Shown here: positions 10,452 through 56,817 of the stretch, one piece after another
Numbering within the stretch: position 1 is the first letter of the stretch
How the letters are laid out: each line of letters starts with the position of its first letter
Source of the DNA: Candidatus Poribacteria bacterium
Lineage (GTDB): Bacteria; Poribacteria; WGA-4E; PCPOR2b
Assembly (NCBI GenBank): GCA_965247655.1
Contig: OZ252032.1
Span: forward strand, 5,339,843-5,403,842
Reading direction: 5' to 3'
Length of the DNA stretch: 64,000 bases
The notes under the pieces: generated by a model
What the model saw: the letters and a program-made list of their open reading frames with translations, nothing else
Database searches by the model: none
Told to the model about the DNA's origin: nothing
Made by a program: the position numbers and the translations under genes

Positions 10452-10524
10452 TGGAGCATATCGGACTTGAACCGATGACTTCTTGCATGCCATGCAAGCG
10501 CTCTCCCAACTGAGCTAATGCCCC
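10452..10524 (-). tRNA. tRNA-Ala (anticodon GGC)
   Basis: Minus-strand read GGGGCATTAGCTCAGTTGGGAGAGCGCTTGCATGGCATGCAAGAAGTCATCGGTTCAAGTCCGATATGCTCCA; G3:U70 Ala identity pair, anticodon loop ATGGCAT, T-loop GGTTCAAGTCC; CCA not encoded. Confidence 0.9.
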
Positions 10525-49462: not shown

Positions 49463-50626
49463 ATGGCTCAACGCAAAGCACCCCCGGATTCGGCAAGAAC
49501 CGTCCCTGTTCAAAAGCCCTTTGTTCGGTTAGATGATATCGGTAATACCGGTCTTATCTTAGGAATAATAATTGGGGTGCTCATCTTCGGCAGTATTATT
49601 GTCTTTATTGTGTTTTTTGAAGACGATGTTTCTCTTCCCAACGATGCTCTTCCCCTAGGTGTGTCCCTTTTTATTGCAGGGGTTCCATCTGTCGGATTTG
49701 GGGTGGCGAGTTACGCGCTCGTGCGGCGAAAATATGGACTGCAGTGGTCTGCAATCGGACTAACATTCGACAACTGGCGACGCGGTTTGCTCTGGGTACT
49801 AGCACTGCTCCCTATGGCATTGCTCGCCTGTTGGTTGGAAGATCAGGGATGGCGGTGGCTGCTTTATCGGCATTCGATTCCGATTTTGAGCCCGTGGCAT
49901 AGTCCATTAGAATCAATTTCTCTGTGGAGAGAGGATTACGGTATTCTCGGGCATTGTGCAGCAGTGATTGTCGCTATTTTCGTTGTGATTAGTCAAGGCG
50001 TCTTCTTTTGGGGACTCGGATATAACGCTATAGAGCGCGAACATTCATCAGTCTTATCCGGAATTTTTAACGTAGCGTTCGCGCTCCTATTAGCATACTT
50101 GGTGGGATTTCCCTTTCTCCTACCTCTCCCATTTGTATCTGCGTGCGTCATCACCTTTGCATTTACACGCACACGTACTCTACTCACGCCGTTAACAATG
50201 ACAATCGGGGTTTTCGTGTTTTTTCAATGCGTCGTTCAGCCAACATGGTATGCCGTTAATCGATTTACGATACACGGGAATTGTATATGTGCTGACGACG
50301 GCACCCCTTTAGATAACGGGATTGTCACGTATGGTGGCAACGATTACAAAAATGTAACGGTGGTTAAATGGGAGGGGGGGCAGCGAGAGGGTGAGACAAC
50401 GGCTACGTCGTCAGGTGCGTACACATTTCAAAATGTATTGCCACGCGGATATAATATTGCACTCACTGTAACGTCTACGCACTACCATTGGCATGGAACA
50501 GAATCGTTTCCCCCTCTTAAAAAATGTACCTATTCCCATACCGAATTACTCCGTGGGGTCAAAAATGCGCCAAAAAACGTGGAGAGGAATTTTGGCTTGG
50601 AGCCTGACACGGTTGAGACGCCTTGA
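49463..50626 (+). CDS. Polytopic membrane protein with C-terminal carboxypeptidase-regulatory-like beta-sandwich domain
   Basis: Multiple TM helices; C-terminal DDGTPLDNGIVTYGG...GAYTFQNVLPRGYNIALT pattern. Confidence 0.35.
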   Translation: MAQRKAPPDSARTVPVQKPFVRLDDIGNTGLILGIIIGVLIFGSIIVFIVFFEDDVSLPNDALPLGVSLFIAGVPSVGFGVASYALVRRKYGLQWSAIGLTFDNWRRGLLWVLALLPMALLACWLEDQGWRWLLYRHSIPILSPWHSPLESISLWREDYGILGHCAAVIVAIFVVISQGVFFWGLGYNAIEREHSSVLSGIFNVAFALLLAYLVGFPFLLPLPFVSACVITFAFTRTRTLLTPLTMTIGVFVFFQCVVQPTWYAVNRFTIHGNCICADDGTPLDNGIVTYGGNDYKNVTVVKWEGGQREGETTATSSGAYTFQNVLPRGYNIALTVTSTHYHWHGTESFPPLKKCTYSHTELLRGVKNAPKNVERNFGLEPDTVETP

Positions 50627-50698: not shown

Positions 50699-51424
50699 AT
50701 GCAAATTCTTAATCTCGAATCAGGAACGCCTTTCCAGATGGGCAAGGGAAAAAATTGGCGGGTCGTCCATCCCGATATGGGGGCGACACAGATAACCCTT
50801 AACCACGGACAACATGCGCCCGGTCAGGAGTTCACGCAACATCTTCACGACGAATCGGAGGATATGATTGTGGTGCTTGAGGGTGGCGGTCATATCCGGC
50901 AGGGAGCGGTTTACACGCCAATTATTGCGGGCGATGGAATCTTTGTCCCAGCGCGTGAGGTTCACGGCACTGTCAATACGACAGATCAACCGGCACGACT
51001 TATAAGTTTCCAATCCCCGCCGGATATGGCACTGTACCGTGGCGAACGGGATCACCCCAACGATTCACCGAAACCGGAACTGGGGCACCGAAGCGGTGTA
51101 CAAGTGATTTCGATGGCAAAAGCGGGGCCTGTGTTCGGTAAATCGGGAGATTGGCGTAGTGTTGTTTCACCCCAGAAGGGGAGTCAACATCTGTCGCTCG
51201 ATTACGTCCAACTCAATATCGGCGAAGCGTTCACGCATAAACCCATCGGCGCAGAATCAATTTATGTGCTGATTGGTGGAGGCGCAACGGTACAGACGAA
51301 TGGAGAAACATCAACGCTTGGCTTGAGAGATGTACTCTTTCTCAGTCCTGAAGATACCTTCTCGTTATCACAGGCTGGCAGTGAACCGACCACACTGCTT
51401 CATTGTTGGGCGTTAGCAAAATAG
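50699..51424 (+). CDS. Bicupin-domain protein
   Basis: Two cupin cores (HLHDESEDMIVVLEGGG...VHGTVN and a second C-terminal beta-barrel); GGAGGG RBS. Confidence 0.65.
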   Translation: MQILNLESGTPFQMGKGKNWRVVHPDMGATQITLNHGQHAPGQEFTQHLHDESEDMIVVLEGGGHIRQGAVYTPIIAGDGIFVPAREVHGTVNTTDQPARLISFQSPPDMALYRGERDHPNDSPKPELGHRSGVQVISMAKAGPVFGKSGDWRSVVSPQKGSQHLSLDYVQLNIGEAFTHKPIGAESIYVLIGGGATVQTNGETSTLGLRDVLFLSPEDTFSLSQAGSEPTTLLHCWALAK

Positions 51425-51539
51425 GCAATCAAAGAATGGAAATAGGGGAACAGATTCATAATTTTGAGATAAATTTGCCTCAACGTCTATCAAACTCATC
51501 CAATCACGTTTCATGTTTCACGTTTCATGTATGGAGGCA

Positions 51540-51880
51540 TATTACAGGTCAGCTACCCCGCCCTGAAGGACGGGGCTTGTTGCCCGTCCCGGGACTTACA
51601 GGGTTTTCGGTCTCGGCTCGTAACTTTACACACCCGCCACCGTCCCGAGCAGCTCGGGATTAGAAGCAGCCACAGCGTGTCGGGGACAGCACCGTTTCAA
51701 CTTCCGGGCGAAACCTCAGACAAACAACGTCCCGATCCTATCGGGAGGAGCGAAAAACGAGCGTTTTTCCTAAGTCATCGAGTTACGAGAGAATTATACC
51801 CTATCAACACTTTTTAATCAACAAAAAGGAGGCACAGTGGAGACCCCGCTCTAAAGAACGGGGTCTCCACTGCGAAGATT
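51540..51880 (-). mobile_element. tnpB-less remnant of an IS200/IS605-family element (MITE/PATE-like): RE/tnpB-3' segment plus LE-like hairpin segment
   Basis: 51552-51575 is identical (24/24) to the tnpB 3' end/stop region at 54365-54388 and still encodes ...APSFRAG*; 51826-51877 is homologous to 55741-55798 including TCTCCACTGCGAAGATTTTG and a 10-bp perfect hairpin (51838-51867). Confidence 0.55.
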
Positions 51881-54289
51881 TTGATGAAAGAAGAAACTGG
51901 TGATCTGGCGATTAGCCGACAAGGCAGTCAGGTTATCGCGAAAAACAATCTATTCCAAATCAATTTTGATCTTTCCGAGGGAACCTGGAACTACACCGAT
52001 AAAACGGGTTATAGCATCATCAGGAACGCGTATACGAAGATTATTTTGCAAGATGGGACAGTCCTAACAACACTGGATCCGGGAAGTTCAGAGTTTATTA
52101 CAAGTCCTGCCACCGAAGATGAATCTGGCGTTTACCAACCAATTACATTTGCGCACCAACCCGAAGGGCATGGGGTGCGGACCCATCTCTATCTGAAATG
52201 TTATCCCAGAAAGCCTTATGTTGTATTGACCGTCGGCGTAAAAAACACGCACGAGGCACCAATTACCTTAGAACAGATTTCCACCATTGACGTCTCCCCT
52301 CACAACGGTAAAGCCAAAGGCGGTGTTTATTTAGGAGGTGCACCATCGGGCTATCATACTTTTCTAGACATGAATACACCGATGACATCTGGACTTAAAG
52401 AGATCCACGACGGGTTTCGCATCAACGAAGAGGCTTCGACCACCTCCTGTTACAACGGAGTTCTCTATGACACGGAGAGCAAGCGATCTCTCGTCTTCGG
52501 CTTTTTGAGTTTTCAAAAATGGTGGTCTGCTGTCCAAATGGGATATGATGGAGGCACGCAACAGGGTAAGGAAGAAAACCACGGCGTGAATCACTGGGCT
52601 CTCTACCATAAGTGTGAAAACCATATCTGCCGTCAAGGTGAGGAGGTATACGCTGAGTCTGTTTACTTGAATTTCGCGCATCAGGGGCGGGCGGCATACC
52701 ATGATTACGCCGAGATGGTCGGACGCCGTGTGAAACCAAAATCGCTAAATCGTGTTTTCTCAGGTTGGTGTGCTCAGGATAGTGAGGACAGGACGATAAG
52801 TGCCGCGCAAATTTCCGAACAGATTGAACAGATTACCAAAGACCGATTATCTGACCCATCAATTCCCGGCGGATTTGAGTACATCCAGATTGGAAAGGGT
52901 TGGGAAGCATCAATCGGCAGCTATCAAGCGGATGTGCAGAAGTTTCCAAGTGGGATGAAATCGGTTGCTGACCAGATTCATGCCAAAGGACTAAAAGCCG
53001 GCATCCGATTTACGCCGTTTTGCGTGGAGGCTAGCTCCGAACTCTTGAGAACGCGCTCAGGGTATTTCCTCCAAGAGCGTGGCACAAAGAAGCCTGCCTC
53101 CATCGTTTTGCCGGAAGATGGGAGGGAGGTTGCCGTACTCGATGTATCGCAACCGGGGACGCAGGCGCATATTCGTGAAAATATCCGGAAATTGATTGAT
53201 GAGTGGGGATACGATCTGGTCAAAGCGGATTTACTCGCATACGCAATAGGACCGCTGACAGAACTGAACAACTTTGTGGCACACAACTCATCGCTTACTG
53301 CTGTTGAACTGTATCGCCTCGGGGTTCAGTTACTAAATCAGATTATTGATGACAATGAAAAAGAGGTTGTGCTTGCAGCGTGTAATACATGCCGGGGACC
53401 AAGTATCGGAGACTTTGTGCTGAACGAAACATCTTCAGGTTATGGCGGCTACATCGGCGAAGGGTCTTGGGAGAGTCCGCAAGGGTTAAAACCGATTGTC
53501 AATACCCACGCGGCACATCTTCCGATGTATGGCAACGCATGGACAAATGAGTTTGGCACCCTAAGCATCAACGAACCACTCCCTCTGAATGAAGCACTTA
53601 TTGCAATGACAATGGCAGGAATGAGTGGCGGGGTTGTCACTTGCGGTGATGATTTCACGACACTCAAGCCGGAGCGAGCGGAATTGCTCGCCAAGATTTT
53701 TCCGCTAACTGGTGATTCCGCAATACCTGTTGATCTTTATGAAAACAAATTCCCGCAAATCTGGAATCTACCGGTGATATCTCCCTACGAATCCTACAAT
53801 GTCGTTGGGGTTTTTAACTGGACGAATATAAAGGCAGATGTCGATTTGGCTTTGGATTCGCTCGGTTTAAATCGCTCTCAATATTATCTTGTGCACGATT
53901 TCTGGAACCGTGAATTCCTCGGCAATGTTCGAGAGCGGGTAGCTCTGTTCGATATTCCACCCCGCTCTGTCAAGCTACTGTGTCTACGCGCTGAACAGAA
54001 GGTCCCCCAACTACTCGCTACAGATACTCACCTTACGCAAGGTAGCGTGGATGTCTTGTCCGCCGGCTGGGATAAGCGAAGCCAGAGTTTTTTAGCGGTC
54101 TGCAAGCCCCCTAGGCGCAGCAAAGCAACATTGTTCCTTCATGTACCTGAAGGTTACGCCCCTGCCACAATCGCGTGTTACGGTGCCGACTACCGCTTTC
54201 GTTGGGACAGACAGATCTATGAATTTGAATTCAATTCAAGCACAGCACTCGTACAGGTCAGCGTTCAATTTTCCAAGACATCGGGGTAA
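51881..54289 (+). CDS. Glycoside hydrolase, alpha-galactosidase-like (clan GH-D, GH36/GH27-type)
   Basis: Catalytic-region motifs GIRFTPF and YDLVKADL (KxD); 802 aa. Confidence 0.55.
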   Translation: MMKEETGDLAISRQGSQVIAKNNLFQINFDLSEGTWNYTDKTGYSIIRNAYTKIILQDGTVLTTLDPGSSEFITSPATEDESGVYQPITFAHQPEGHGVRTHLYLKCYPRKPYVVLTVGVKNTHEAPITLEQISTIDVSPHNGKAKGGVYLGGAPSGYHTFLDMNTPMTSGLKEIHDGFRINEEASTTSCYNGVLYDTESKRSLVFGFLSFQKWWSAVQMGYDGGTQQGKEENHGVNHWALYHKCENHICRQGEEVYAESVYLNFAHQGRAAYHDYAEMVGRRVKPKSLNRVFSGWCAQDSEDRTISAAQISEQIEQITKDRLSDPSIPGGFEYIQIGKGWEASIGSYQADVQKFPSGMKSVADQIHAKGLKAGIRFTPFCVEASSELLRTRSGYFLQERGTKKPASIVLPEDGREVAVLDVSQPGTQAHIRENIRKLIDEWGYDLVKADLLAYAIGPLTELNNFVAHNSSLTAVELYRLGVQLLNQIIDDNEKEVVLAACNTCRGPSIGDFVLNETSSGYGGYIGEGSWESPQGLKPIVNTHAAHLPMYGNAWTNEFGTLSINEPLPLNEALIAMTMAGMSGGVVTCGDDFTTLKPERAELLAKIFPLTGDSAIPVDLYENKFPQIWNLPVISPYESYNVVGVFNWTNIKADVDLALDSLGLNRSQYYLVHDFWNREFLGNVRERVALFDIPPRSVKLLCLRAEQKVPQLLATDTHLTQGSVDVLSAGWDKRSQSFLAVCKPPRRSKATLFLHVPEGYAPATIACYGADYRFRWDRQIYEFEFNSSTALVQVSVQFSKTSG

Positions 54290-54480
54290 AACGACGCTGT
54301 ACACCCCGATAGAATCAGGAGATTTCGCTGCGCTCAACACGATACAAAAGGAGGGATTGTCAACTACCCCGCCCTGAAGGACGGGGCCCCCGACAAGTCG
54401 GGATACAAGCACTTGTGATACCGTCCACGGGGGCTTACAGGTTTCGCGCTTCCTTCTCTTTCGAGGGTTTCAGAGCCGTT
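54290..54480 (-). ncRNA. Candidate omega-RNA (reRNA) locus overlapping the tnpB 3' end and right end
   Basis: Position rule for IS200/IS605 TnpB guide RNAs; the segment is conserved in the tnpB-less copy at 51552 and begins next to an 8-bp hairpin (54284-54314). Confidence 0.25.
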
Positions 54481-55800
54481 AGTTACCGGCGTCCCTCCAC
54501 GCAGGGCAGCAGCTGCCCGATTACCAATGTTGATTGCTGCGTTGTGGTCACGGTCAATTATCAACCCACAATCGGGGCAGTAATGGACACGGACAGACAA
54601 CGACTTCTTTACAACCGAACCACACCCTGAGCATTCCTGAGACGTGCCTTGAGGCTTAACTTGCAACAGATGCTTACCAGCTTTTGCAGCTTTGCTTTGC
54701 AGTGTTAAGCGAAAATTACCCCATGCAGCATCAGATATGCTTTTAGAAAGATAGTGGTTTTGAACCATGTTAGTGATTTTCAAGACCTCAACAGCTACCG
54801 CGTCACACTGGGTAAAAAGTTGGTGTGCGGTCTTGTAGTGGAAGTCACGGCGTTGGTTGACAATATGCTCGTGTATCTTGGCAACCCGTTCCCGTTGGTT
54901 ACTATAGCGTCTGCTCCCCTTCTGCCTTTTGGATAACCGACCTTGTGCTTGGCTCAACTTGTGTTCTGATTGACGAAAGTGGCGAGGATTGGCAACCTTA
55001 TCCCCATTGGAAGTGGTTAGAAACGATGCCAAACCGACGTCAATCCCTGTAATCGTTTGGATAGATGCTTCGGGAATCTCAGGTACATCAGGGAGCTGGA
55101 CAGTAATATTTGCATACCAGCCACTGGCTTTCCGTTGTATGGTCAGATTCTTAATTTTGCCATTGGGAAGCGCGCGGTGATAACAAATGGCAACATGCCC
55201 AATCTTGGGCACAACTATCCGAGCCATCCGTTTACGGATATTGCGAATCAACCGTTTAGATAGGTGGCTAAAGGTCATTGAGCGGTATCGGCCTTCACCT
55301 TTGAAGCGTGGGAACCCGGGTGCTTCACCTTTTTCGACACGGACAAAGAACGCTTGATAGGCTTTGTCCAAACGGCGTAAAGTGTCCTGCAAAACATCAC
55401 AGTGCTTGGTTTGCCAGAATTGAGAGACATTGCGAAGTGTGGTCAAATAGGCAGCTTGCGTTCTGTAAGTGATATTTTCCTTGTGCTTGTCGTAGGCTTG
55501 CTTTTTCATATCAAGTGCTTGGTTATAAAGCGTACGACACGCATCAAGCCAAACTTCAAGTGCCTTGCGTTGTTTCATCGTCGGATAAATGCGATATTGA
55601 TATGTTGTTTTCATGGGATTCGGTTTTCTGGATTTCAATCCGGTACTAACGGAGGTGGGAAGCAGCCCGATGGGATCGGGACGTAGTACCTTCCCACGAA
55701 AGCCAACTATAGTATACCATAAAGCCTTTAACAATACATGGAAAAGGAGCGCAGTTTCCTCCCCTCCCTAAAGGGAAGGGATCTCCACTGCGAAGATTTG
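54306..55800 (-). mobile_element. IS200/IS605-family element carrying only tnpB (IS1341-like), about 1.5 kb
   Basis: TnpB ORF flanked by end segments that recur elsewhere in the window (54306-54339 = 56921-56955; 55741-55798 = 51826-51877); no tnpA. Confidence 0.65.
54364..55614 (-). CDS. tnpB: TnpB (OrfB) RNA-guided endonuclease-like transposon protein
   Basis: N-terminal MKTTYQYRIYPT, RuvC-like ITGIDVGL, AVAVEVLK and DRDHNAAINI, zinc finger CSGCG...CPDCG; start at ATG 55614. Confidence 0.85.
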   Translation of the reverse strand: MKTTYQYRIYPTMKQRKALEVWLDACRTLYNQALDMKKQAYDKHKENITYRTQAAYLTTLRNVSQFWQTKHCDVLQDTLRRLDKAYQAFFVRVEKGEAPGFPRFKGEGRYRSMTFSHLSKRLIRNIRKRMARIVVPKIGHVAICYHRALPNGKIKNLTIQRKASGWYANITVQLPDVPEIPEASIQTITGIDVGLASFLTTSNGDKVANPRHFRQSEHKLSQAQGRLSKRQKGSRRYSNQRERVAKIHEHIVNQRRDFHYKTAHQLFTQCDAVAVEVLKITNMVQNHYLSKSISDAAWGNFRLTLQSKAAKAGKHLLQVKPQGTSQECSGCGSVVKKSLSVRVHYCPDCGLIIDRDHNAAINIGNRAAAALRGGTPVTNGSETLEREGSAKPVSPRGRYHKCLYPDLSGAPSFRAG

Positions 55801-56817
55801 ATGAACTATTCTCAAGTATTAAAGGAACTTGAAGGTCTCGTCAATGAGACCTACGGTTTATGGGATCATAACCGTGTTGGATTCCAATGGCGGCACTACA
55901 CATGGAACCACACGATGCGGGTCCGCGCCATGAGCATGGAACTTGGCAGGCGCGAGGGTGGCGACGTCACCAAGCTCGAAGTCGCGGGAACCCTGCACGA
56001 TATCACCAAGCGGTATGATGGTGAAATTTTGTCGGATGAAAACGGCAAGCGGGTCGTTAATCATGACGGACTCTGGCTGAATGAACAACTCACGCCGAGT
56101 CGAGAGAATCTCGTCACCCGGCTTTATGACGAAAACAATCTTGGCGGCACGGTTCACCACGAGTCAGGAGCAGTTGTCACCGAGAAGATACTGGCGATGT
56201 ATGATTTCGATCAGGATTTTGTTGACGCGGTCCGTGCCATTGTGTTAGCACACCTGAAACCGATGAACCTCACCGAGGATCGGTATGATTTCCTCTACGG
56301 AAACGTCGAAAATCAGATTCTCTATGACGCTGACACAATGGATCCAAATGTCGGCTATACCGCATTTTTCCGCAACGTCCACATCCACAGCTATTCCGCT
56401 ATCCGGCGCAACGGCAAGTTCGATCTTGAGGAGTATGTCCAGAGTCTACCTCGCTGGGTCAATTCCAAGCAGGCTTTCGTCGAACATTTATTGACAGAAT
56501 CGGCGAAGGAGATCGGGCAGGCACGACAGGATCGAAACCGGGAGTTGGCGGATCAGATCGCAGCGGAAGCAGGAGATATGGAGACGAATCGAAAATACGG
56601 GCTGCTCGGCGTCATTGAATACTTCGTCAGCGACACCGAAGATCCGCACTTTATGAACCAATTGGCGTATCTCAAGGAGCATTGGATCCCGGAGCGGCAG
56701 AAACAACTCGCTGAGGAAGAAACCACGGAGGCGGCTCGGGATCGTGCGAGTGAGGCGTTGGATCGGGTGATTGATTTCACTAATACGCTTGAGCGGGAGT
56801 ATCAGGGGGAAATTTGA
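55801..56817 (+). CDS. HD-domain phosphohydrolase
   Basis: H...HD motif (HTMRV...VAGTLHDITK); ATG 55801 preferred because the upstream 60 nt is the IS end segment. Confidence 0.65.
   Translation: MNYSQVLKELEGLVNETYGLWDHNRVGFQWRHYTWNHTMRVRAMSMELGRREGGDVTKLEVAGTLHDITKRYDGEILSDENGKRVVNHDGLWLNEQLTPSRENLVTRLYDENNLGGTVHHESGAVVTEKILAMYDFDQDFVDAVRAIVLAHLKPMNLTEDRYDFLYGNVENQILYDADTMDPNVGYTAFFRNVHIHSYSAIRRNGKFDLEEYVQSLPRWVNSKQAFVEHLLTESAKEIGQARQDRNRELADQIAAEAGDMETNRKYGLLGVIEYFVSDTEDPHFMNQLAYLKEHWIPERQKQLAEEETTEAARDRASEALDRVIDFTNTLEREYQGEI

What the first reader, a model, noticed from the sequence alone, without database searches (positions are those of the whole stretch)
51540..51880. tnpB-less miniature derivative of the same IS
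The region 51552-51615 repeats the tnpB 3'-end/right-end segment of the full element with an internal deletion. It is 24/24 identical at the start and still encodes the last residues APSFRAG plus stop in the minus frame. A left-end-like segment with a perfect 10-bp hairpin (GGAGACCCCG...CGGGGTCTCC, 51838-51867) lies 250 bp downstream. This architecture (RE + short spacer + LE, no tnpB) is that of a palindrome-associated/MITE-like derivative of IS200/IS605, or possibly a stand-alone omega-RNA locus. The remnant lies directly upstream of the alpha-galactosidase-like gene 51881..54289 and the full tnpB element lies directly downstream, so the two brackets could drive rearrangement of this glycoside hydrolase.
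Basis: seen in the sequence. Interest (0 to 1): 0.7.

Follow-up and report, generated by a model that had tools for sequence, protein, structure and literature searches.

The report
Gene-less mini transposon carrying guide-RNA scaffold
This 336-base insert is a gene-less miniature of an IS200/IS605-type transposon (a "PATE") that keeps both transposon ends, a promoter and a folded guide-RNA-like region, and it sits exactly between the ribosome-binding site and the start codon of a sugar-degrading enzyme gene; this kind of element is already known, so it is a well-documented example and not a new system.

Summary
Window 51548-51883 (minus strand) is a 336-nt, ORF-less insertion. It shares its left end (about 97 nt, 73%) and right end (28/29 nt plus a second block) with the neighbouring tnpB element (54359-55800).

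Three close Poribacteria relatives have an intact "empty" site (GGAGG-N10-ATG), so this is a true insertion. It lies 3' of TTCAT and has no target duplication. Four end-to-end homologues without tnpB (428-466 nt) sit at unrelated loci in two other Poribacteria genomes.

The roughly 190-260-nt interior is not shared with the tnpB elements examined. It is conserved among the minis and folds, on the tnpB-sense strand only, into a multi-helix RNA with many compensatory changes. A promoter-like site (TTGATT-17-TATAAT) lies just upstream.

The 24-mer is the known 8-bp/UUCA right-end hairpin, found in more than 116 loci of bacteria and archaea. It therefore does not show derivation from "the same IS".

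Best reading: a PATE-type non-autonomous IS200/IS605 element with its own omega-RNA-like gene. It would depend on TnpA and TnpB supplied in trans. I found no evidence that the two elements rearranged the glycosidase gene. This is a new member of a known kind, of modest interest.

The parts
51548..51883 (-). Whole miniature element (336 nt). Top strand reads 5'-CAAAATCTTCG...GGGCGGGGTAGCTGAC-3'.
   Evidence: The limits come from two sources: empty-site alignments with orthologous loci L117-L119, and the end-to-end alignment with four other minis. The mini profile matches at E = 1.4e-92.
51884..51888 (-). Target / transposon-adjacent motif TTCAT next to the left end. On the + strand it reads ATGAA, the start codon and first bases of codon 2 of the alpha-galactosidase gene.
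   Evidence: Ten elements show NTCAT (9) or TTCAC (1) at this position. Relatives have ...ACAG|ATGAAAG uninterrupted. Orthologues are 801 aa long, which confirms this ATG as the start.
51833..51874 (-). Left-end subterminal hairpin (19 pairs). It is followed by CCTCCTTTTT (51832-51823), which makes it terminator-like on the minus strand. On the + strand the same stretch reads GGAGG + hairpin + CGAAGATTTTG + ATG.
   Evidence: Inverted repeat I2. Terminator-like call. Compensatory changes in helices 1 and 2.
51793..51821 (-). Sigma-70-like promoter TTGATT-17 nt-TATAAT, pointing into the element.
   Evidence: It is the only promoter-like site in 51400-52000, matching 10 of 12 positions, against 0.4 expected. 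A -10-like box (TGGTAGAAT / TGGTATACT) lies at the same aligned place in the other minis and in the full elements.
51601..51723 (-). Conserved core of the mini-family RNA (helices 7-12). It includes the invariant GGTGGCGGGTGTGTAAAGTTACGAG.
   Evidence: Covariance model R1 scores 123.5 bits here and 145 bits in the four other minis. Covariation is shown.
51724..51790 (-). 5' part of the predicted RNA. It holds the 5' strand of the long-range closing helix (GUAACUCGAUGACUU), hairpin GGAAAAACGCUCGUUUUUC, and a variable hairpin UCCCGAUAGGAUCGGGA (51730-51746).
   Evidence: RNAalifold. Pair counts for helices 3-6.
51577..51606 (-). Right-end-proximal module (CCCUGUAAGUCCCGGGACGGGCAACAAG), shared with the 3' ends of tnpB elements.
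   Evidence: blastn block 51584-51605 vs 54421-54444. nhmmer profile positions 409-500 match the full elements in the window, L101, L042, L120 and L121. See also alignment A7.
51556..51575 (-). Right-end subterminal hairpin: 8-bp stem CCCCGUCC/GGGCGGGG with a UUCA tetraloop.
   Evidence: A weak Rfam match to the last two hairpins of sot0042 lies at the equivalent place in the full element. The motif is described in PMC4615843.
51548..51555 (-). Right-end terminal octamer TAGCTGAC (family consensus TAGTTGAC). The presumed cleavage site is after GAC.
   Evidence: It is invariant across minis and fulls, and similarity stops abruptly after it.
51528..51547 (-). Flank that would be transcribed as the guide of an omega-RNA (CUGUAAUAUGCCUCCAUACA). 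On the + strand it contains the native Shine-Dalgarno GGAGG (51533-51537) of the alpha-galactosidase gene.
   Evidence: This is an inference from the position next to the right end. The empty site reads TTCAT + this sequence on the minus strand.
54359..55800 (-). Neighbouring full tnpB-only (IS1341-type) element, inserted between GGAGG-GATT and the ATG of the HD-domain gene. The tnpB CDS is 54364-55614.
   Evidence: Pfam finds OrfB_IS605, Cas12f1-like_TNB and HTH_OrfB_IS605. It is homologous to ISDra2 TnpB 8bf8 at E = 1e-56. Relatives show the empty site.
51884..54289 (+). Alpha-galactosidase-like gene (801 aa) bracketed by the two elements.
   Evidence: Pfam Melibiase. 801-aa orthologues at 82-93% identity, in conserved gene order.

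Best explanation
Window 51548-51883 is a non-autonomous IS200/IS605-family element of the PATE type (palindrome-associated transposable element). It belongs to a small family found so far only in Candidatus Poribacteria genomes.

Shown:
- It is an insertion relative to close relatives.
- It lies 3' of TTCAT, with no target duplication and no inverted terminal repeats.
- It has a hairpin near each end, and its termini are those of tnpB-only (IS1341-type) elements.
- It has no ORF.
- Homologous copies sit at unrelated loci in other genomes.
- Its interior carries a conserved, covarying RNA-type secondary structure on the tnpB-sense strand, preceded by a promoter-like site.
- Its last 60-90 nt are homologous to the 3' end of the omega-RNA region of tnpB elements.

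Inferred:
- It was inserted, and could be moved again, by a Y1 TnpA transposase through single-strand 'peel-and-paste'. That transposase would be encoded elsewhere, since none lies in this window.
- From its own promoter it makes an RNA of about 240 nt that ends with the right-end scaffold, followed by about 16-20 nt of flank as guide.
- A TnpB made by another element, for example the intact one 2.5 kb away, could load this RNA. It would then cut the vacant allele (TTCAT + CTGTAATATGCCTCC...), which favours retention of the mini.

Side effect: the insertion separates the alpha-galactosidase start codon from its native GGAGG by 336 nt.
For: Empty sites. L117 and L119 read GGAGGCATAyTACAr|ATGAAAG, and L118 reads GGAG---TATTGCACA|ATGAAAG (diverged spacer). 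The window has 336 nt at the bar. The adjacent tnpB element is likewise absent from AAAAGGAGGnTnT|ATGAAC in relatives.

Shared ends. The left end matches at 73% over 97 nt. The right end matches at 28/29 plus a second block. With the mini profile, nhmmer hits the full elements only at profile positions about 21-149 and 409-500.

Family.
- Four end-to-end homologues of 428-466 nt are 71-74% identical to the window copy.
- Three copies in one genome are 89-94% identical to each other.
- No reading frame is conserved.

Structure.
- 96.4% of 529 cells are paired.
- 24 pairs change on both sides, against 1-6 when the 3' partners are slid, and 0 of 500 shuffles reach the observed value.
- Alifold gives -97 kcal/mol for the tnpB-sense strand and -53 for the other strand.

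Promoter-like site: TTGATT-17-TATAAT directly upstream of the first helix.

Co-resident TnpB: intact and ISDra2-like, with GIDVG / AVEVL / DRDHNAA motifs.

Co-occurrence: minis occur together with tnpB elements that have the same ends in all three genomes where minis were seen.

Literature. PATEs derive from IS605-type transposons (PMC3119063). PATEs 'often encode omega-RNAs' that TnpB must act on in trans (PMC10055086). A PATE-derived RNA with the same 8-bp/UUCA hairpin is expressed in Halobacterium (PMC4615843).
Against: - No transcription, TnpB binding or transposition data exist for this element.
- The interior upstream of the last ~90 nt shows no significant sequence similarity to the omega-RNA region of the five tnpB elements examined. 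Only one weak, collinear covariance-model hit was found, in L120 at 11.9 bits. Compatibility with the neighbouring TnpB is therefore unproven.
- The window copy lacks 63 nt (helices 13-15) that the other minis have, so it may be a crippled copy.
- The window copy folded alone is not unusually stable (z = -1.3).
- The structure test rests on only five sequences from three lineages, and the structure was predicted from the same alignment.
- No tnpA lies in the 64-kb window.
- Copy number in the source genome is unknown. The source genome itself was not retrieved.
Confidence: 0.75

Rival explanations
1. An inert relic. It is a PATE-type insertion, but the interior has no RNA function. Its conservation among copies reflects recent common ancestry, and the promoter-like site is left over from the tnpB promoter.
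For: Only three independent lineages are available. Single-sequence folding is not significant. The window copy has lost 63 nt present in the others. Interior motifs gave no further copies in metagenome, viral or plasmid collections.
Against: Copies 71-81% identical keep 96% of the predicted pairs, and 24 pairs change on both sides. There is strong strand asymmetry, -97 vs -53 kcal/mol. Invariant 25-nt blocks sit next to freely varying stems.
Confidence: 0.15
2. The element works mainly in cis on the + strand, as a new 5' leader for the alpha-galactosidase gene. The left end supplies a replacement ribosome-binding site (GGAGG, then a hairpin that brings it close to the start, then 8-11 nt and ATG), so insertions at start codons stay tolerable.
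For: In all 10 elements seen, the + strand left end reads a purine-rich GGAGG/AGGAG/AGAGG tract, then the hairpin, then AAGATTT(T)G, then the flank, which is ATG in nine and GTG in L095. Both window elements, and at least one other (L034, a TonB_C protein), sit exactly at a gene's start codon.
Against: The same bases are explained as the U-tract of a terminator-like hairpin on the element's own strand. At least five of ten insertions are not at a gene start. The structure favours the other strand. No expression data exist.
Confidence: 0.07
3. A stand-alone IscB/IsrB-type guide RNA (HEARO family) read on the + strand. It would start at GTCAGCTACCCC..., with the guide taken from the upstream flank.
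For: The HEARO consensus begins GUCAACUACCCCcgcccUaAAggAgGGGGC. This is the reverse complement of the family's right end. A full-length but very weak HEARO match covers the L034 mini on that strand.
Against: The score is 14.9 bits against a gathering score of 83, and essentially all of it comes from the first ~35 nt. There was no HEARO hit in the window at E <= 1. Covariation and G-U pairs favour the opposite strand. No iscB/isrB gene was found in the loci examined.
Confidence: 0.02

Closest known systems
PATEs (palindrome-associated transposable elements) of haloarchaea, e.g. Haloquadratum HqIRS46/HqIRS71, and Halobacterium VNG_R0052 (PMC3119063; PMC4615843)
   Same: They are too short to encode a transposase. 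They have no terminal inverted repeats and no target duplication, and carry near-terminal palindromes like those of IS605/IS1341-type transposons. The right-end hairpin is the same 8-bp stem with a UUCA loop. Some are expressed as RNA.
   Different: This family is bacterial (Poribacteria). Its interior of about 190-260 nt is not a simple fusion of the ends of any full element found here. That interior shows conserved, covarying structure and sits behind its own promoter-like site.
PATE-like elements with omega-RNAs in Geobacillus stearothermophilus (Meers et al. 2023, PMC10055086)
   Same: They are gene-less IS200/IS605 derivatives that share left and right ends with tnpB/iscB elements. They are proposed to be mobilised by TnpA in trans and to supply omega-RNAs used by TnpB in trans.
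   Different: The lineage and target motif differ (TTCAT here). No experimental data exist for this family.
IS1341-type (tnpB-only) elements and their omega-RNA / sotRNA, e.g. ISDra2 and Halobacterium sot0042 (RF02656)
   Same: Same termini and same strand logic. The RNA ends at the right end with the UUCA hairpin. The neighbouring TnpB is an ISDra2-type protein (E = 1e-56 to 8bf8).
   Different: There is no tnpB. Only the last 60-90 nt of the RNA region are demonstrably homologous. The Rfam sot0042 match is far below threshold (16.4 vs 88 bits) and was obtained on the full element, not on the mini.
HEARO RNA (IscB/IsrB omega-RNA, RF02033)
   Same: The first ~30 nt of the HEARO consensus are the reverse complement of this family's right end. 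This suggests the same type of transposon end.
   Different: The functional strand is the opposite one. The rest of the model does not fit (14.9 vs 83 bits).
TIR-type MITEs
   Same: They are short, non-coding, non-autonomous and multi-copy.
   Different: MITEs have terminal inverted repeats and target duplications. This element has neither. A true TIR-type MITE does sit in the same intergenic region of relative L118.

Membership tests
PATE / non-autonomous IS200/IS605 element | Too short to encode a transposase; no conserved ORF | tested here: met
   The element is 336 nt. Stops occur in all frames and no frame is conserved among the five copies.
PATE / non-autonomous IS200/IS605 element | Palindromes close to both termini and no terminal inverted repeats | tested here: met
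   Left-end hairpin 51833-51874 and right-end hairpin 51556-51575. The two hairpins resemble each other in direct orientation (D1). The termini CAAAATC... and ...GCTGAC are not inverted repeats.
PATE / non-autonomous IS200/IS605 element | Insertion next to a short specific target, without target-site duplication | tested here: met
   Empty-site alignments A3 and A4. The target is NTCAT in 9 of 10 elements.
PATE / non-autonomous IS200/IS605 element | Ends related to those of IS605/IS1341-type transposons | tested here: met
   blastn and nhmmer matches to the left and right ends of five tnpB elements.
PATE / non-autonomous IS200/IS605 element | Mobility: copies at non-homologous sites and presence/absence polymorphism | tested here: met
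   Absent from the orthologous site in three relatives. Four homologous copies lie at other loci, three of them in one genome at 89-94% identity. Copy number in the source genome is unknown.
PATE / non-autonomous IS200/IS605 element | Mobilised by a Y1 (HUH) TnpA acting on single-stranded DNA | not testable with these tools
   tblastn with remembered TnpA sequences found no tnpA in the window. A partial tnpA-like stretch lies in Poribacteria locus L065 1384-1584.
TnpB omega-RNA (guide RNA) | Lies at the right end on the tnpB-sense strand, with its scaffold ending at the transposon boundary | tested here: met
   The 3' module is homologous to that of tnpB elements. Strand asymmetry of folding points to the tnpB-sense strand.
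TnpB omega-RNA (guide RNA) | Conserved secondary structure | tested here: met
   The caveat is that there are only five sequences and the structure was predicted from the same alignment.
TnpB omega-RNA (guide RNA) | Scaffold homologous to that of a cognate TnpB element over its whole length | tested here: inconclusive
   Only the last 60-90 nt are clearly shared. The supporting signs are one shared hairpin followed by a GCGGTGG/GCGTGGAGG motif in A7 and one weak collinear covariance-model hit. Local alignment against shuffles is not significant.
TnpB omega-RNA (guide RNA) | Transcribed, bound by TnpB, and directs TAM-dependent DNA cleavage | not testable with these tools
   Only a promoter-like site and an intact TnpB nearby.
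HEARO (IscB/IsrB omega-RNA, RF02033) | Match to the Rfam covariance model at gathering score | tested here: not met
   14.9 bits vs 83 on the L034 mini. Nothing in the window.
sotRNA sot0042 (RF02656) | Match to the Rfam covariance model at gathering score | tested here: not met
   16.4 bits vs 88, covering only model positions 133-174, on the full element. 12.8 bits on the L034 mini.
TIR-type MITE | Terminal inverted repeats and target-site duplication | tested here: not met
Self-splicing intron (IStron-like) on the host-gene strand | Match to group I or group II intron models | tested here: not met
   No intron family at E <= 1 on either strand. The + strand folds much less well.

The most novel reading that the evidence does not exclude
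The Poribacteria minis are a self-contained mobile 'guide-RNA gene': transposon ends plus a private promoter plus an omega-RNA-like scaffold whose 5' two-thirds have no counterpart in the tnpB elements examined here. Such an element would parasitise both TnpA (for movement) and TnpB (for homing). In addition, its left end (GGAGG + hairpin + 8-11 nt) would act as a portable ribosome-binding site. That would let elements with the target TTCAT (= ATGAA) land between the Shine-Dalgarno and the start codon without silencing the gene.
Probability: 0.15. Interest if true: 0.55.

Novelty: new member of a known kind. Interest (0 to 1): 0.3.

Why it matters
The element adds a well-delimited bacterial PATE family to a class best documented in haloarchaea and Geobacillus. 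It comes with an empty site, exact boundaries, a target motif and a testable RNA structure.

It supports the view that the transposon ends, the guide RNA and the nuclease of IS200/IS605 elements are separable modules. If the RNA does programme a TnpB in trans, such minis are natural examples of guide RNAs uncoupled from their nuclease gene.

The exact placement of two elements between Shine-Dalgarno and ATG of adjacent genes also gives a simple system for asking how these insertions affect host gene expression.

None of this changes the current picture of these elements.

Tried and rejected
1. Finding the source genome by exact protein look-up failed for both the alpha-galactosidase and TnpB.

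2. Searching for more copies with interior motifs found nothing:
- metagenome contigs, two scans
- viral contigs
- plasmids by blastn

3. I looked for a parent tnpB element for the interior.
- nhmmer and covariance-model searches of 121 loci, and two extra tnpB loci fetched for the purpose (L120, L121), gave only end matches plus one weak collinear hit.
- A shuffle-controlled local alignment was not significant.
- An apparent relic of the DRDxNAAxNI codons (ERSFNAALSL) is not conserved in the window or L095 copies. It coincides with a covarying helix, so I do not rely on it.

4. Protein-coding reading: no frame is conserved.

5. Riboswitch or leader, group I/II intron, and HEARO readings: no Rfam support, and the wrong strand.

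6. Single-sequence thermodynamic stability is not informative.

7. Gene rearrangement driven by the two elements: gene order is conserved in relatives.

Full report
**1. The observation**

The 24-mer CTACCCCGCCCTGAAGGACGGGGC occurs exactly twice in the 64-kb window, at 51553-51576 and 54364-54387, with none expected by chance. The match extends to 28/29 (51548-51576 vs 54359-54387). It resumes at 51584-51605 vs 54421-54444 (83%), after a stretch that is 33 nt in the full element and 7 nt in the mini. The minus frame reads APSFRAG* in both.

The left-end-like hairpin is longer than described: arms 51835-51852 and 51855-51872, 18 nt, 94% complementary. Positions 51795-51888 align with 55713-55805 at 73% over 97 nt (E = 7e-10), including an exact 18-mer.

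The neighbouring ORF, 54364-55614 on the minus strand, is a bona fide TnpB. Pfam finds OrfB_IS605, Cas12f1-like TNB and HTH_OrfB_IS605. It matches ISDra2 TnpB (PDB 8bf8) at E = 1e-56, and the GIDVG, AVEVL and DRDHNAA motifs are present.

**2. It is a real insertion with exact boundaries**

The alpha-galactosidase-like protein (801 aa from the ATG at 51884) has many 801-aa orthologues at 82-93% identity in Candidatus Poribacteria assemblies. Three orthologous loci (L117-L119) keep the order cupin / alpha-galactosidase / HD-domain protein.

- In L117 and L119 the sequence before the alpha-galactosidase start is GGAGGCATAyTACAr|ATGAAAG. L118 reads GGAG---TATTGCACA|ATGAAAG, with a diverged spacer. 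The window has 336 extra bases at the bar, 51548-51883.
- The tnpB element (54359-55800, 1442 nt) is likewise absent from AAAAGGAGGnTnT|ATGAAC before the HD gene in all three relatives.

Both elements are therefore insertions on the same strand. Neither has a target duplication. On the element's own (minus) strand each lies immediately 3' of TTCAT. Because TTCAT is the reverse complement of ATGAA, each insertion falls exactly between a GGAGG Shine-Dalgarno and the start codon of a gene.

**3. It belongs to a family of gene-less elements**

A genome-collection scan with 21 nt of the right-end hairpin returned more than 116 loci from many bacterial and archaeal phyla. The closest were from three Poribacteria genomes.

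Four of those loci are homologous to the window mini from end to end and contain no tnpB:
- L095 7547-7979
- L065 6827-7291
- L034 2028-2499
- L086 2413-2860

They are 428-466 nt long and 71-74% identical to the window copy. The three copies from one genome are 89-94% identical to each other. They lie in unrelated surroundings.

All copies start CAAA(A)TCTTCG after a flank ending NTCAT (once TTCAC), and all end GGGCGGGGTAG(T/C)TGAC. None has a conserved reading frame. The window copy lacks 63 nt (three helices) and an optional 24-nt hairpin that the others carry.

**4. Relation to the tnpB elements**

A profile of the minis matches five full tnpB elements (window, L101, L042, L120, L121) only at the left end (about 75-120 nt, reaching the -10 box) and at the right end (about 65-95 nt).

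The mini's left end is closer to tnpB elements of other Poribacteria genomes (80-83%) than to its neighbour (73%). So the mini is not a deletion derivative of the adjacent copy. It shares end modules with that lineage.

The interior of about 190-260 nt has no significant sequence similarity to the 3' part of the tnpB genes. A covariance model of the mini core gives one weak hit, at exactly the collinear place in L120: 11.9 bits, E = 0.25 over 165 kb and 0.002 over 1.4 kb. A joint alignment shows one shared hairpin with compensatory changes, followed by GCGGTGG/GCGTGGAGG. This suggests, but does not establish, that the core is a diverged omega-RNA scaffold.

**5. The interior looks like a structured RNA on the tnpB-sense strand**

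RNAalifold predicts a closed multi-helix fold. A long-range helix joins the first bases after the -10 box to the GUAAGUCCCG...GGAC block just before the terminal hairpin.

On the five copies:
- 96.4% of 529 cells are paired.
- 24 pairs show changes on both sides, against 1-6 when the 3' partners are slid by 1-3 columns. None of 500 shuffles reaches the observed values.
- The consensus energy is -97 kcal/mol on the tnpB-sense strand and -53 on the other strand. Many G-U pairs account for the difference.

The caveats are that there are only three independent lineages, that the structure was derived from the same alignment, and that the window copy folded alone is unremarkable (z = -1.3).

The only sigma-70-like site in 51400-52000 is TTGATT-17-TATAAT (51821-51793, minus strand), directly upstream of the first helix. 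The left-end hairpin followed by CCTCCTTTTT is flagged as terminator-like on the same strand. No Rfam family reaches threshold.

**6. The hairpin is a known, very widespread motif**

The right-end hairpin, an 8-bp stem with a UUCA loop, is the motif reported for sotRNAs at the 3' end of IS1341-type tnpB genes, for HgcC RNAs, and for an expressed PATE-derived RNA in Halobacterium (PMC4615843). The weak Rfam hits to sot0042 and HgcC fit this.

With the flanks CAAG...TAGTTGAC it occurs in methanogens, Thermoplasmata and Asgard archaea, and in several bacterial phyla. In Streptomyces and other loci the same hairpin lies next to IS200-type tnpA genes. The HEARO (IscB/IsrB guide RNA) consensus begins with the reverse complement of this right end.

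**7. Mechanism**

The anatomy matches what is known of IS200/IS605 'peel-and-paste' transposition: subterminal hairpins recognised by TnpA, insertion 3' of a short motif, and no duplication (established knowledge, summarised in PMC4615843 and PMC10055086).

It also matches the proposal that PATEs 'often encode omega-RNAs' that must be used in trans by TnpB from other elements (PMC10055086). PATEs themselves were defined in Haloquadratum (PMC3119063).

I therefore conclude that this is a PATE-type element with its own promoter and an omega-RNA-like gene.
- The insertion, the ends, the family and the structure are shown.
- Transcription, TnpA mobilisation and TnpB loading are inferred.

No tnpA lies in the window, so mobilisation would depend on a gene elsewhere in the genome.

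**8.

Gene order around the alpha-galactosidase gene is ancestral, so there is no sign of rearrangement.

In principle the outer pair of ends (left end at 55800, right end at 51548, same strand and in the right order) could be treated by TnpA as one 4.25-kb element carrying the gene. The short direct repeats could also mediate deletion, as described for Haloquadratum PATEs. Both are untested possibilities.

**9. Verdict**

This is a new member of a known kind, of modest interest (0.3).

The most novel reading that remains open is a self-contained mobile guide-RNA gene whose left end doubles as a portable ribosome-binding site (probability about 0.15).

Noticed in passing
window 51533-51547 + 51884 and 54350-54358 + 55801: Both IS elements sit exactly between a GGAGG Shine-Dalgarno and the ATG of two adjacent genes. 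The target TTCAT is the reverse complement of ATGAA. In all ten elements seen, the gene-sense strand of the left end reads a purine-rich GGAGG-like tract, then the hairpin, then AAGATTT(T)G, then the flank, which begins ATG in nine and GTG in L095. At least three of the ten insertions are at real gene starts (alpha-galactosidase, HD protein, and a TonB_C protein in L034).
   Followed up: partly
L118 4791-4960: In one relative the same cupin/alpha-galactosidase intergenic region carries a different ~167-nt insert with 30-nt imperfect terminal inverted repeats. This is a TIR-type MITE. L117 has a further ~47-nt insert there. The spacer appears to be an insertion hot spot.
   Followed up: partly
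L034 2028-2243 (+); window 51548-51576 (+): The Rfam HEARO (IscB/IsrB guide RNA) consensus starts GUCAACUACCCCcgcccUaAAggAgGGGGC, which is the reverse complement of this family's right end. This suggests that tnpB-type and iscB/isrB-type elements share one kind of transposon end, read on opposite strands.
   Followed up: partly
loci L001-L116 (e.g. L009, L026, L058, L074; L003, L011, L045): The identical 21-nt hairpin occurs in other repeated contexts. In Streptomyces it reads GGCGCAAG[hairpin]AAGCCGGAACGGTCCGCAGAGCGAAGCT, next to IS200-type tnpA genes. In Bacteroidales it reads CATTAG[hairpin]ATAGATTTAAGCAACACCCACCTCTGCGAA. The hairpin therefore marks several distinct IS200/IS605-like lineages across bacteria and archaea.
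   Followed up: partly
window 51507-51529: Tandem 7-nt units (ACGTTTC / ATGTTTC) lie just upstream of the alpha-galactosidase Shine-Dalgarno. The window has one unit more than relatives L117-L119.
   Followed up: no
window 49463-50626: There is a variable gene slot between the NTP-transferase and cupin genes. It holds a 387-aa ORF without a Pfam match here, a 382-aa ORF in L118, a 526-aa AAA-ATPase in L119, and nothing in L117.
   Followed up: no
L065 1384-1584: A partial IS200-type TnpA-like coding stretch (39-46% identity to remembered IS608/ISDra2 TnpA over ~60 aa) lies in a Poribacteria genome that carries three minis. It is a possible trace of the transposase source.
   Followed up: no
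window 54388-54420: The optional hairpin ATCCCGACTTGTCGGGG in the full element's omega-RNA region is also present in the L034 and L065 minis, but absent from other fulls and minis. The 3' modules appear to be exchanged between minis and fulls.
   Followed up: partly
window 10452-10524 (-): A tRNA gene is the only Rfam family at gathering score in the whole window.
   Followed up: no
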